Shown one piece after another: positions 645-61,330 of a stretch of DNA of 64,000 bases (within the stretch, counting starts at the first letter, position 1; each line of letters opens with the position of its first letter). The notes under the pieces were generated by a model. It had not been told where the DNA came from and did not search any database. It worked only from the letters and a program-made list of their open reading frames with translations. The position numbers were made by a program, and so were the translations under genes. Origin of the DNA: Octopus vulgaris (lineage: Eukaryota); contig OX597821.1 of NCBI GenBank assembly GCA_951406725.2, forward strand, positions 111,414,001-111,478,000. Direction: 5' to 3'.

Positions 645-1033
645 TAACGTTTCGGACACTTATACTTCTTCAGAAAGAACTCTAGCATGGCCGCAGTCCA
701 ATGACTGAAACATGTGAAAGATAAAAGATAAAAGATAAAAAAAATAACATAAATGGTAAACCACGTGAAAAGTTACTTCAAGTTTCACCATCAGAAAAGC
801 TATTTTTTCATTTTATTATTTTAAAATCTTTTTGCACATAACGTTTCGGACACTTATACTTCTTCAGAAAGAACTCTAGCATGGCCGCAGTCCAATGACT
901 GAAACATGTGAAAGATAAAAGATAAAAGATAAAAAAAATAACATAAATGGTAAACCACGTGAAAAGTTACTTCAAGTTTCACCATCAGAAAAGCTATTTT
1001 TTTATTTTATTATTTTAAAATCTTTTTGCACAT
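645..1033. repeat. Tandem duplication of ~194 bp (645-838, 839-1033)
   Basis: Both copies start TAACGTTTCGGACACTTATAC and end TTTTTGCACA; each contains a SINE-A 3' tail. Confidence 0.95.
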
Positions 1034-4000
1034 TTTGTTACATTCTTTGAAAGTTTTTAATGAAAATGTGTTGATATAATTCATTTTGAATCCAACCATA
1101 CCTTCAAAGCTAATTTGTTTTCTCGGTTATTGGTTCCAAAGAAGAAAATGACTTCTGCTTAAAAATCGTGATGATATGAAAGAATTTCTATTTGCGAGTT
1201 TACGTGCTTTTTTTTTTCTCAAAGAACATTAGTCTTCGTTCTTATAATTCGCAACGGCAGCTGTAAAAGAATCAACACGTTACTACACACTGAAGACATC
1301 TTCTCCATTCTGCTGGTGACTCCAAAAGTTACCTATTACATACAAGATGCTGTATATTTCTCCAAGACATTTAACATTTATTCTTTATGTTGTTTGTTAT
1401 TTCTATGTTTTGATTTCACACACACATACACACACACACGCGCGAACACACACACAGGCATACGCACACATACACACTCACACACACACACGCATACAAA
1501 TGCATACATATATATATATATATATATATATATATATATATATATATATATATATATATATATATATATATATATAAATACGTGCATGTATGTATGTATA
1601 TATATATATATATATATATAGAGAGAGAGAGAGAGAGAGCTATATGTATATATACATATATATATATACACACACACATACTCACTCACACAAACACATT
1701 CGCTCACTCACACACACACACTCACTCACTCACGCACACACACATATATATATAAAGAAGTGAGATAGAGAAAATGGCGGTCTTTAAAAGTTTGTATTAC
1801 ATATGCGATAGCAGGAAGATACCATGTTTATTAGTTTCCTCTTTAAACAGCTGCCGAACAAACAAACACACACACACACACACACACACACACACACACA
1901 CATACATACACACACACGTGTGCACACGCACACACATACGCACACATGCAAACACAAAGTAACAAAGAAACAAAAGAAGAAAGCAACAAAACAAAGCAAA
2001 AAAAAAAAAAAAACCAACTTTGGAAAGACGTTAGATTCTTTATTTCTCGAAGATGGAATGTGTAAAAAAAAAAAAGACAAAATTTGAAAAGAAAAACATA
2101 AAAGAAGAAAAAACTAAACAGAAAACAAAACGATGACGAGAACCAATTTGTGTGCGTATGTGTGTGTGTATGTGTCTGTGTGTGTGTGTGTGTGTGTGTG
2201 TGTGTATGTGTCTGTGTGTGTGTATGTGTGTGTGTGTGTGTGTGTGTATGTGTGTGTGTGTGTGTATGTGTGTGTGTGTGTGTATGTGTGTGTGTGTGTG
2301 TGTGTGTGAGTATGTATATCTATGATAAAAATTAAAAATATAAACAAACTTGGGATTCATTTAAGGGTGGAGATAAGGAACAAGGCCTCGCTAATAGTTT
2401 TCGTAGTCAAAGCATTTTACCAGGGTGGAGTAACTAGTTCCACGTGGGACAGCCAGGAACATTCCAAGGTACTCTTGTCATTCATTACTCACCTTTATGT
2501 TAGGGTAGGAGGGTGGGGGCTTGATAGGGAGGGTGGGAATTTGCCATTACAAACTGATAAATATAGGTGTGCGTATATAGTTGTCTTTATATTTAAACTG
2601 TACTTGTTATGTATATATGTGATTGTTATGTAAGTGTGCGCACGCGTATGAGCTTGTGTGTGTGTGTGTTTTTTGTGTGCGTGAATGTTAATGAATTTAT
2701 GAGTATGTACGTGTGTTGTTGAATGCTTATGTGAGAGTATTTGCTAAAGCGCTTGTCTACACACGCGTGCATAAAGATCTGGGCGCGCCTGTGCTGGAGT
2801 GTGTAAATATACGATGATGAATAACACAAATATAATGTATATATAGCTGTTTGCATATATATATATATAGATATATAGATATATGTATGATGTGTTCATA
2901 TTAAGGTGCGCGCACACACACACACACATATGTATTGTTGTAGCTGTGCGTATATATATTTGAGTGTGTTTATATATAATTGCACCTGAATCCTTCCCGG
3001 GAGATGTGTGAATATGTCTATGGCATTCCATTTATGTATGTGTGTGTGTGTGTGTGTGTGTGTGTGAATCTCTCTCTCTCTATCTCTCTCTTTCTCTCTC
3101 TCTCTCTTTCTCTCTCTCTCTCTCTATATATATATATATATATGTATATATATATACACATGTGCGTATACACATATACACATATATACATACATATATA
3201 TATATATATATATATATATATATACACACATACACAAGCATTTTATATATGAACATATACATGTATACACACACAAGCACACACACGGACACACGGACAC
3301 ACGGACACACGGACACACGGACACACGGACACATACATATATAAACACATAGGCACACGTATATAAATGAAAATTGTTTGTGATGCTTTTAAAATACAAG
3401 GGCGTCAAGACAGATGTGAATCCGGTGAGATTACTCACACACACATACACACACAAATACATTAACACACATATGTGTATGTATATATATATATATATAT
3501 ATATATATATATACATACACACACACACACACACACACACACACACACACACACACACACACACATATATATATATGTATATATTATAAGTATATAAGCA
3601 CAAAACGTATATTCCTACACACACGTATTTAAATCTCTCTGCGCACATGTGTATATAAAGATATTTGTTCTTGATATATACATACATATGCATACAGACA
3701 CACAGACACACACACACATGTGTATATATATAATCACACATACATTCATATATACTTATATATATATATATATATATATATATATATATATATATATATA
3801 TAGCTATAGGGATACATGTATACATATATATATATATATATATATATATATATATATATATATATATATACATATACATATATACTTAGATATACATATA
3901 CACATACATATACATACATATAAATATGCATATATATATATATATATATATATATATATATATATATAATATATATATATGAACATAAGGAAAACACAAA

Positions 4001-5702
4001 GTCATACACAATATACGCACAAATGTATACATACACAAATACATACACTCATACACACATATATATATATATATATATATACATACTCGCAAGAAAAGAA
4101 GGTGGAGGATGTAAGGAGGAAGAGTATTCCTCTGTTTGCATACTCCTATACTCCTGTGTGATTACGCGTATTTGTGTATATATAAGACTGTGTATGCGGT
4201 GTGTATGTATGCGTAGAGCAAACAAATTATTTTCGCACAGCCAACACAAAACATACACGCACACACATACACTCGCTCGCAAACACACACCAACACATCT
4301 ATAATATATTCACAAACGATATAAGAATGAAAATACCTGAGATAAAATTCTTAAAGGAGTGGCGCATTTTATTGTTGTCTTTGAAAAGAATCAATTATAG
4401 AACTAAACCGAAGCTAAAGAGAAAAAGATTCTGAAGTTATTTATACCAAACAAAAGCCGTTCTTATTAATATCAGTGCCTTCAATGGTGGATTGCGCCAG
4501 AAGAGAGCGGAGCGCTTTTTATCAAAGCAGTCTTGACGATTAAGTTTAAACGTGGCGTGTGTAGGTATTAATAAATGGTAAATCCTTATTTAAACTTAAA
4601 GGGATAAGAAGAACACGATTCAAGTTTTGCAACTGTGTTGTCATAGCATCGAAATATTTTTAGCAATGCCGTATTTCTTAAGACGGTTTAGAACATCCTT
4701 CATAAAAGGTAATTATTATAATTATTATAACCGCCAGTATCTGTGGAAATTCAATGGTTATTTTGGAAATTATACATTTTTCAAAAGCATTTGATCTTGG
4801 AGATGTTGTAAAAACCACATAGGTAGTACTAAAGGTGCAATCTTAAGAACCAACATCTCTGAAAGCTAGATTCTAATATCCTCCACTTTATAAGTTGTTA
4901 TCTATTATTTTTGGTTTTACGTTAAAAATGAGATGGTGTTGACTAGTATAGCATTTTCGATTCCCACATCCTCTTCAATAAACATTCATTCTCTTTCTTT
5001 CTCTCAAACGCACACTCACTGTTTCCTTTACTCTCTCTTTCTCCTTTTCACCCATTCTCTTTGCTTCTCCTTTCAAATATACAACATCTCCGCCCCTAAT
5101 CACATTCTCTTCCCCTCTCTCTCTCTCTCTCTCTCATTCCATTCTCCCCTCAACGTACCTCGTCACAGCGTCACACATTTGATCTTAGCGGTTTAATACA
5201 GAGATTATTCTTTGTAGTTGTAACATTAAAAAAAAATTTCATTCGATTCTTTTACCAAAAATTACGCGGACAATATCGAATAATAAATAATTCCTTTTGA
5301 AAAATAATCATATTATCCAGTGAAATTCACTAAAAAAGGCGGGTGGACTGGTGCTTAAAGAGGTTGGCTTCTCGGTCTCTAAGATCGTGGGTTCAATTTG
5401 GGGAGCGAATACATGGTGTTCTTGTCCGCTCGATTGAAAATGAGCAGCACTAACCAAAGGCTGGTTCTAAGCTACCTCTGTTTCTCTCTTCAAAGTCCTG
5501 TATTTTCCATCGGGTCAAAAGTGAGAGAGCCGAGAGTATATCAATGTCTGCTCGTGACTACACAGGCACTTAAAACAATCAATGAAAGCATGTTACGTGC
5601 TACCAAGTGATATATATATATATATATATATATATATATATATATATATATATATATATATATATATATATATATATATATATATATATATATATATATA
5701 TA

Positions 5703-59653: not shown

Positions 59654-59927
59654 TTATTATTTATTATTATTATTATTATTATTATTATTATTATTATTAT
59701 TATTATTATTATTATTATTATTATTATTATTATTATTATCATCATTATTATTATTATTATTATTATTATTATCATTATTATCATTATTATTATTATTATT
59801 ATTATTATTATTACATCATCATCATCATCATTATTATTATTATTATTATTATTATTATTATCATTATCATTATTATTATTATTATTATTATTATTATTAT
59901 TATTATTATTATTATTATTATTATTAC
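59654..59927. repeat. (TTA)n microsatellite
   Basis: Direct inspection. Confidence 0.97.
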
Positions 59928-61212
59928 TTGTTATATTAGTGGTATCTGCTTCGTATGTCTCCGTTTTGCAGTAATTACACTTTATACCAGCGCAAACCTC
60001 AACTCCACTTACATGGAAAGCATAAACACGTCATTTTACATATAAACTACATCCTACGTCGACCAATGAACAAATAATATAAATATATCGTCGGTCTCTA
60101 GTTACTAATAGGAGCCAATAAATATTAGTAATGAGGCTGAATTTGATCATCATATTTGTACACGGGATGTATATACATACCATTCGTATTTGGGTGTATG
60201 TATGTAAAAATATATGTATGTATGTAAGTATATATGTATGTATGTATGTATGTATGTATGTATGTATGTATGTATGTATGTATGTCTGTCTGTATGTATG
60301 TATGTATGCATGCATAAGTGGATGTATGTATGGATATCTGTGTGTATGTCTGTGTGTATGTATGTATGTATGTATGTATGTGTGTGTATGTATGTATGTA
60401 TCTATGTATTTATGTATGCATGCATGTGTGTATGTGTGGGATGTATGTATGGATGTTTGTGTGTATGTCTGTGTGTATGTCTGTGCGTGTATGTATGTTT
60501 GTATCTATGTATGTATGCATGCGTGTATGTATGTATGTATGTATGTATGCATGCGTGTGTGTATGTGTGGATGTATGTATGGATGTCTGTGTGTATGTCT
60601 GTGTATGTATGTATGTTTGTATGTATATGTGAGTGTGTGTATGATGTGTGTGTATGTATGTGTGCGTGTGTATATGTATGTATGCATAAACATTCTAACA
60701 TACATATACCTTTTAGTTATGATAAACGAAACTGTACTCTTAGTATTTGCATTCATATATATATATATATATGCATACATACATACATACATACATACAT
60801 ACATACATACATACATAATGCATATATATATATATATATATATATATATATATATATATATATATATATATATGTATGCATATATATATATATATATATA
60901 TATATATATATATATATATATATATACTGTTGAATCCAATCTGTGGAGTGTGTAAGAGAAAGAGAGAGCGAGACAGGGAGTGACACCGAGAGAAAGAGAG
61001 AGGAAGAGAGAAATTATGAGGCGCACCAATTTATATATTTCTTCACTTACGAAAAGCAATAATGAATACACATAATTTCATATATCATATGTAAATGATA
61101 TATTTATTTTAAAGGTATATATAGAATGCATACGCGCGCGCTCACAGGCACTTGAATTAAGAAGAAAAGAAAGTACTCAATATTTGTGGAAGATATATAT
61201 ATATATATATAT

Positions 61213-61330
61213 TCGACAAAATGAGATAACAAAGCCAAGGCTGTGAGGAGTTTTCAGGACATTTATAAGGAAAAAGATATAGATATAGTCTTACAGCTGT
61301 TTCTGGGATATTATGGATATCCCTTCATAT
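61213..61330 (-). mobile_element. Penelope-type terminal fragment with 5'-clipped hammerhead, ending in (TA)n
   Basis: Reverse complement ATGAA-GGGATAT-CCATA-ATATCCC-A-GAAAC-AGCT-GTA-AGAC. Confidence 0.55.

What the first reader, a model, noticed from the sequence alone, without database searches (positions are those of the whole stretch)
645..61330. Several hammerhead-ribozyme-bearing Penelope-type terminal repeat families parked at (TA)n microsatellites
Seen: at least six unrelated 100-500 bp families carry whole or half hammerhead cores (CTGANGA..GAAAC-palindrome-GTH). Sites: 9601+, 10605+, 12055-, 21535+, 21826-, 31681-, 35519-, 51417-, 61287-, with weaker ones at 645-/839- and 30987+. 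Most end their sense strand in a (TA)n tract, and several form head-to-head inversions. Established: Penelope-like elements carry minimal hammerheads in their pseudo-LTRs and leave inverted, 5'-truncated copies. Inference: octopus hosts a dense, TA-targeted population of ribozyme-containing retroelements that would mostly be annotated as unknown repeats.
Basis: partly seen in the sequence, partly recalled or inferred. Interest (0 to 1): 0.75.

Follow-up and report, generated by a model that had tools for sequence, protein, structure and literature searches.

The report
Penelope retrotransposon ends with variant hammerheads
These repeats are mostly the leftover ends of known jumping genes (Penelope-like elements) that sit in TA repeats and carry a hammerhead self-cutting RNA motif, and one very young family has a change at a core letter that likely weakens cutting, which would let one test whether these elements need the ribozyme at all.

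Summary
Largely confirmed, and of a known kind; this scan found the kind before elsewhere in this genome (e1-8669779). The sites belong to 8 repeat families. Only 21539+ is an intact canonical core among the listed sites; the others are mutated or cut, but other genomic copies carry whole hammerheads. Stems covary across 11 families (43/44 and 43/43 pairs; 0 of 100,000 permutations). Four families are ends of protein-coding Penelope-like elements: A (21535, 31681) and B (10605, 21826) of Neptune/Nematis type, E (51417) and F (61287) of Hydra type. A and B are related, not unrelated. C (12055) and the missed J (39384) form 420-455-nt tandems, like retrozymes. D, G and I stay unlinked; 645/839 is not supported. 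3' ends abut (TA)n in 70-97% of copies against at most 8% background. Two points I did not find in print: family B, which is very young, has U at core position 6 in 50 of 50 copies while N7 varies; and three full-length families carry their own TATATA exactly where insertions end. No cleavage was measured.

The parts
21457..21670 (+). Family A pLTR (Neptune/Nematis-type PLE), solo copy with intact minimal type I hammerhead (C3 at 21539), ending in (TA)n
31571..31767 (-). Family A pLTR, older copy, core A9>C (C3 at 31711)
10545..10739 (+). Family B pLTR, hammerhead with U at position 6 (C3 at 10610), ending in (TA)n; 5' start read by eye
10459..10527 (-). Inverted 3' piece of family B, head-to-head partner
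21731..21931 (-). Family B pLTR (older subfamily; U6, A13>G); converges with family A on the same (TA)n tract 21671-21730
34946..35253 (+).
11833..12091 (-). Family C, retrozyme-like 431-455-nt tandem unit; this copy has the 3' half of the hammerhead only
12086..12210 (+). Inverted partner of the family C copy
35402..35576 (-). Family D fold-back; only the cleavage triplet and 3' stem I are present; whole motif (U4>C core) in other copies; no ORF link found
51252..51454 (-). Family E 3' end (Hydra-type PLE), 3' half of the hammerhead
32757..33014 (.).
61215..61326 (-). Family F 3' end (Hydra-type PLE), hammerhead cut just after C3-U4-G5
9590..9760 (+). Family G, old family; this copy has a mutated cleavage site; no ORF link found
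30712..31153 (+). Family I, right arm of a 442-nt inverted pair; core A9>C near 30995; ends in (TA)n
29934..30375 (-). Family I, left arm, with a tail beyond the point where the right arm ends
39116..39705 (-).

Best explanation
Four of these families are the 3' ends (pseudo-LTRs) of protein-coding Penelope-like retrotransposons that lie in (TA)n tracts and carry a type I hammerhead fold, and the other four are likely ends or non-coding dependants of the same kind of element. Shown: A and B follow a frame with RT, a Cys linker and a CCHH GIY-YIG (Neptune/Nematis type); E and F follow a Hydra-type endonuclease; C and J are tandem units. Inferred mechanism: a read-through RNA from a partial tandem is bound by the element's protein; the endonuclease nicks a (TA)n tract; the nicked strand pairs with the element's own 6-7-nt UA run just past the pLTR and primes reverse transcription inside the RNA; copying usually stops early, leaving 100-300-nt solo ends and head-to-head inversions. 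The hammerhead likely trims the RNA weakly, as a dimer or with protein help. In family B the U6 core likely cuts poorly, yet the fold is kept and the family is spreading, so fast self-cleavage is probably not required.
For: A: same-strand downstream of the RT-GIY frame in 19 of 20 extended loci, on both sides in 3. B: 30 of 30 loci, query locus included; both sides in 6 of 18 extended; 1177-aa frame with RVT_1 E 1.6e-7 and GIY-YIG E 0.0075; 40 of 40 scored matches listed at 100% identity over 580 nt. E: 10 of 18 extended loci. F: 5 of 30 loci share the endonuclease stretch upstream, 2 hold both it and the hammerhead end. Stem pairing 43/44 and 43/43 across 11 families, permutation means 22.6 and 21.5. 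(TA)4 within 12 nt of the 3' end: A 28/29, B 17/20, C 18/23, E 24/27, F 16/23, young B chosen by ORF 28/30; background 1.7% of unmasked and 7.9% of all positions. 5' junctions of young B: 18 of 29, at scattered break points (counted by hand). Own TA run at the junction: 7, 6 and 7 nt in B, A and a third family, reached by 0.09%, 0.34% and 0.67% of element positions. Internal priming, protein-assisted cleavage and insertion without cleavage are shown in vitro for an anole PLE (PMC11167929).
Against: No cleavage or transposition was measured. C, D, G, I and J showed no consistent link to an endonuclease frame in 462 loci. SINE-like control ends also touch (TA)n on one side (33/116, 2/39, 11/33, 2/2; other side 9/136, 0/40, 0/24, 0/3), so TA tracts attract or grow beside other repeats too. 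Junction counts drop 2-9 loci per family that lacked my end anchor. The anole element primed at a site without homology to the cut DNA, unlike the pairing proposed here. The TA run rests on three families. Clade calls rest on motifs, not on a tree.
Confidence: 0.85

Rival explanations
1. The (TA)n is a tail made by the element (slippage on its own short TA run), as with microsatellite-tailed LINEs, not a pre-existing target.
For: The elements carry their own 6-7-nt TA run at the junction; family E copies show a TA run followed by a shared tail.
Against: 18 of 29 5' junctions, at different break points, also touch (TA)4; different families stack in one tract (21671-21730); (TA)n is reported as the preferred target of Neptune and Hydra elements (PMC8557442). 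Both processes may act.
Confidence: 0.15
2. Family B's U6 motif is a working ribozyme variant, rescued by the element's protein, by dimer formation or by Mn2+.
For: All other core letters are kept in 48-50 of 50 copies, only N7 varies freely, and position 17 is U, A or C in 49 of 50. A natural A6C variant cuts well in Mn2+ (PMC7151607); the anole hammerhead needs protein.
Against: Changes at position 6 give low activity (PMC3088659); A6C cut at 3.55e-6 per min in 0.3 mM Mg2+ in one ribozyme. The 50 copies share ancestry, so they stand for a few subfamilies.
Confidence: 0.4
3. All the families are non-coding retrozyme-like or SINE-like elements that only borrow an RT.
For: C and J form head-to-tail units; most top copies of A start near one point.
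Against: A, B, E and F continue upstream into coding frames. The reading fits C and J only.
Confidence: 0.05

Closest known systems
Minimal type I hammerheads in pLTRs of metazoan PLEs (Cervera and de la Pena 2014, PMC4209133)
   Same: Short stem I, extra base after A9, G10.1-C11.1, palindromic or absent helix III, solo copies and opposite-strand pairs; family A fits the consensus letter for letter.
   Different: Family B has U6; every motif in the part of the supplementary alignment I saw has A6, though their search required it. No cephalopod appears in the searched supplement.
Neptune (or Nematis) clade PLEs (as described in PMC8557442)
   Same: C-terminal GIY-YIG with CCHH, Cys linker between RT and EN, microsatellite bias (families A, B).
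   Different: Not separated from Nematis without a tree; long CA-rich 3' UTR; own TA run at the junction not mentioned in the passages read.
Hydra clade PLEs (PMC8557442, section 11)
   Same: CxCx5C linker, no CCHH, CxxC near the end, (TA)n insertions, canonical hammerhead (families E, F); DKT seen in a related intact 838-aa frame.
   Different: That section lists few mollusc families; here 14,273 first-look candidates for the endonuclease (many families). 3' UTRs of about 1.3-1.7 kb.
Animal non-LTR retrozymes (PMC7229834; bioRxiv 10.64898/2026.07.22.740005)
   Same: Head-to-tail units, each with a type I hammerhead, no coding frame found (C, J).
   Different: Units of 420-455 nt are a little above the reported 170-400 nt; circular RNA not tested.
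Natural A6C hammerhead of phage Bcep176 (PMC3088659, PMC7151607)
   Same: Change at the same core position.
   Different: U instead of C; in a high-copy animal retroelement; activity untested.

Membership tests
EN+ Penelope-like element | RT followed by C-terminal GIY-YIG | tested here: met
   A and B. E and F: endonuclease end only; RT seen in a related family by motif, no Pfam hit.
EN+ Penelope-like element | pLTR-ORF-pLTR partial tandem | tested here: met
   A 3 of 20, B 6 of 18; not seen for E or F
EN+ Penelope-like element | 5' truncation, inverted copies, optional tail | tested here: met
EN+ Penelope-like element | RT groups with PLEs in a tree | not tested
   no named reference proteins were fetched
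EN+ Penelope-like element (families C, D, G, I, J) | link to an RT/EN frame | tested here: inconclusive
   no consistent same-strand link in 462 loci; no upstream walk was done for these
Neptune/Nematis clade (A, B) | CX2-5CxxC linker plus CCHH endonuclease | tested here: met
   Cx4Cx2C linker and Cys pair inside GIY-YIG
Hydra clade (E, F) | CxCx5C linker, no CCHH, CxxC near the C-terminus | tested here: met
   against section 11 of PMC8557442
Hydra clade (E, F) | DKT and RWK-like RT motifs | tested here: inconclusive
   DKT in related L411/L412; E's and F's own RT not recovered
Minimal type I hammerhead | core CUGANGA/GAAA/UH | tested here: met
   majority of copies in A, C, E, F, G, I, J; D has U4>C, a known natural variant
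Minimal type I hammerhead (family B) | A at position 6 | tested here: not met
   U in 50 of 50 copies; B is filed as a hammerhead-like variant, not a canonical member
Minimal type I hammerhead | stems I and II supported by covariation; palindromic helix III | tested here: met
   helix III palindromic in most families, with a mismatch or short loop in D, G and I
Minimal type I hammerhead | self-cleavage | not testable with these tools
   only contigs were available
Non-LTR retrozyme (C, J) | tandem units each with a hammerhead | tested here: met
   C: two whole motifs 451 nt apart, spacing 431-455; J spacing 422-438, but only one hammerhead seen per locus
Non-LTR retrozyme (C, J) | linear and circular unit-length RNA | not testable with these tools
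   no raw RNA reads

The most novel reading that the evidence does not exclude
A currently spreading Penelope-like family carries a natural U6 hammerhead kept under selection for its fold, either a protein- or manganese-gated ribozyme or a ribozyme turned into a non-cutting RNA element; and TA-targeting PLEs of different families prime reverse transcription by pairing the nicked (TA)n with their own internal UA run, a telomerase-like template-primer alignment.
Probability: 0.35. Interest if true: 0.7.

Novelty: new variant of a known kind. Interest (0 to 1): 0.42.

Why it matters
What the hammerhead does for Penelope-like elements is stated as unclear in PMC8557442, and cleavage was dispensable in vitro for one element (PMC11167929). 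Families A (A6) and B (U6) are related, share stem II, and B has long open frames and near-identical copies, so they form a natural matched pair to test it. The TA run at the junction gives a simple, testable rule for how these elements choose microsatellites. For annotation, descriptor searches that demand A6 miss family B.

Tried and rejected
Rfam scan: no hammerhead family among the best 150 of 580 matches shown, which were almost all microRNA models on microsatellites; the other 430 were not visible, so inconclusive. The repeat finder was swamped by microsatellites. No PLE frame in the window itself. 645/839 rejected as a hammerhead family; no genome search was left for it. Family F copies downstream of Hydra frames in L422/L425 were independent insertions; E-adjacent frame in L335 and C/F pieces in L108 likewise not counted. 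My first reading that family E lies antisense to its frame came from one 5'-inverted copy and was dropped. An ATG right after B's TA run opens only a 43-codon frame, not the main one. Co-folding two monomers of A or B did not give the helix III dimer; uninformative. Sequencing runs: no RNA holder listed; the variant tables listed nothing at position 6, but also nothing at the known variable N7, so they say nothing on U6 in other organisms; they do show contigs piling on the 40-nt motif with unlike flanks. Literature searches for an A6U hammerhead found no relevant paper by listing (in-text 63, 86); earlier-findings look-ups found none. Supplementary file 1 of PMC4209133 could not be searched, and the supplements of PMC8557442 were not read; either may list such cores or these families.
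Full report
Setting. The window is G000:C8:111414001-111478000 of a 2.8-Gb genome. About 31% of it is simple repeat.

Observation. I printed all twelve sites. Only 21539+ is an intact canonical minimal hammerhead: 4-bp stem I, CUGACGA, one extra A, 4-bp stem II, and GAAAC-GUA. A strict descriptor finds it and an unlisted site at 39384-. 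A relaxed descriptor finds 4 hits against 0.31 in 100 block shuffles. The other sites are mutated or truncated, as listed in the observation check. Genome searches gave up to 30 loci for each of A, B, C, E, F and G, and 25 for J; D and I were collected from flanks. In other copies every family has a whole motif. Across 11 families (nine from the window, two from other PLEs of the genome), stem I keeps 43 of 44 pairs and stem II 43 of 43 with different letters; permuting partners gives 22.6 and 21.5, and 0 of 100,000 permutations reach the observed values. I chose the 3' anchors by eye, which favours pairing somewhat. The 645/839 site fails: it is a local 194-bp duplication, stem II does not form, and no other copy occurs in 462 loci.

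Link to coding elements. One A copy followed a truncated RT-linker-GIY-YIG frame. Searching with that frame gave 40 matches; I extended 20, and 19 had A downstream on the same strand, 3 on both sides. One of these loci held a second, related frame ending in B. Its 40 scored matches were all listed at 100% identity over 580 nt; 30 of 30 loci end in B; 6 of 18 extended loci have two pLTRs, and one has a 1177-aa frame with RT and GIY-YIG matches. Both proteins have a Cx4Cx2C linker and the Cys pair inside GIY-YIG, the Neptune/Nematis marks. E copies extend about 1 kb upstream to an endonuclease with CxCx5C, no CCHH and a late CxxC, the Hydra marks; E follows it in 10 of 18 extended loci. F extends upstream likewise: 20 of 30 loci picked by its upstream part reach the hammerhead end, 5 share a Hydra-type endonuclease stretch, and 2 hold both. 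These four families cover six of the nine main sites. C occurs as head-to-tail units of 431-455 nt and J of 422-438 nt. D, G and I remain unlinked.

TA tracts. (TA)4 or more starts within 12 nt of the 3' end in A 28/29, B 17/20, C 18/23, E 24/27 and F 16/23 copies; 0, 9, 6, 2 and 6 of 29 loci were dropped for lack of the end anchor, and four C misses are tandem read-through. Young B copies chosen by their frame give 28/30. Background is 1.7% of unmasked and 7.9% of all window positions. 5' break points of young B touch (TA)4 in 18 of 29 distinct loci (six duplicate rows dropped), which favours a pre-existing target. Against a clean contrast, one end of SINE-like repeats also touches (TA)n in up to a third of copies. 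In full-length copies the upstream pLTR runs on into the element through the element's own TA run, exactly where solo copies end: A in 3 loci, B in 6, and an unrelated two-frame family in L094. Runs that long occur at 0.09-0.67% of element positions.

The U6 core. In 50 of 50 distinct B contexts position 6 is U; N7 is U 19, G 18, A 9, C 4; the other five letters of the CUGANGA strand are kept in 48-50; position 17 is U, A or C in 49. Related family A has A6 in 51 of 51, with U4>C in 18. The register is fixed by A and by which position varies. A natural A6C variant is known and weak in Mg2+ but active in Mn2+. My searches found no A6U report. Run contigs could not test U6 in other organisms.

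Mechanism. Shown: anatomy, links, junctions, covariation. Established for PLEs: hammerheads in pLTRs with low activity (PMC4209133), (TA)n bias in Neptune and Hydra (PMC8557442), internal priming and protein-assisted, dispensable cleavage in one element (PMC11167929). Inferred: nicking at (TA)n, priming by pairing with the RNA's UA run, early termination, and weak or gated cleavage in B.

Papers seen. PMC4209133: parts 1-2 of 4, supplement file 2 part 2 of 3 and a term search; file 1 not searchable. PMC8557442: passages, sections 3 and 11. PMC11167929: parts 1-2 of 4. bioRxiv 10.64898/2026.07.22.740005: part 1 of 5. Passages only: PMC6962438, PMC3846280, PMC12602865, PMC7151607, PMC3088659, PMC13282606. 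PMC11014351: term search, no hits. PMC7229834: abstract and outline. Arkhipova 2006: not seen, cited through PMC8557442.

Verdict. A real and well-supported but known kind of element, already noted by this scan elsewhere in the genome. The U6 variant in a young family and the junction TA run lift it to moderate interest.

Noticed in passing
L094 (G000:C6:133343200-133351500); also L091-L093: Young two-frame PLE: a 479-aa upstream frame overlapping a 781-aa RT-GIY-YIG frame, pLTRs on both sides, (TA)n at both ends, hammerhead with the U3-A8 covariation in 14 of 14 contexts. Not present in the window.
   Followed up: partly
L411:2206-4719 (G000:C7): Intact 838-aa Hydra-type frame with an asparagine-rich insert and its own hammerhead upstream; no Pfam hit.
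   Followed up: partly
window 43211-45665, 54128-54579, 58252-59306: Several copies of a LINE-like 3' end next to (TAA)n tracts, two of them 99% alike; zf-RVT match at E 2e-4. Resembles R4/Dong elements (label recalled).
   Followed up: no
window 5705-6086 and many copies; 15992-16215, 20141-20889 and copies: Abundant SINE-like families; one end of some touches (TA)n in about a third of copies.
   Followed up: partly
L365, locus position 457 in frame orientation; L388 position 2755 on the opposite strand: Further hammerhead motifs of families not present in the window.
   Followed up: no
window 5-351: Array of about 22 copies of a 16-nt unit.
   Followed up: no
families C and F: An extra A lies between stem II and G12 in the majority motif.
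   Followed up: no
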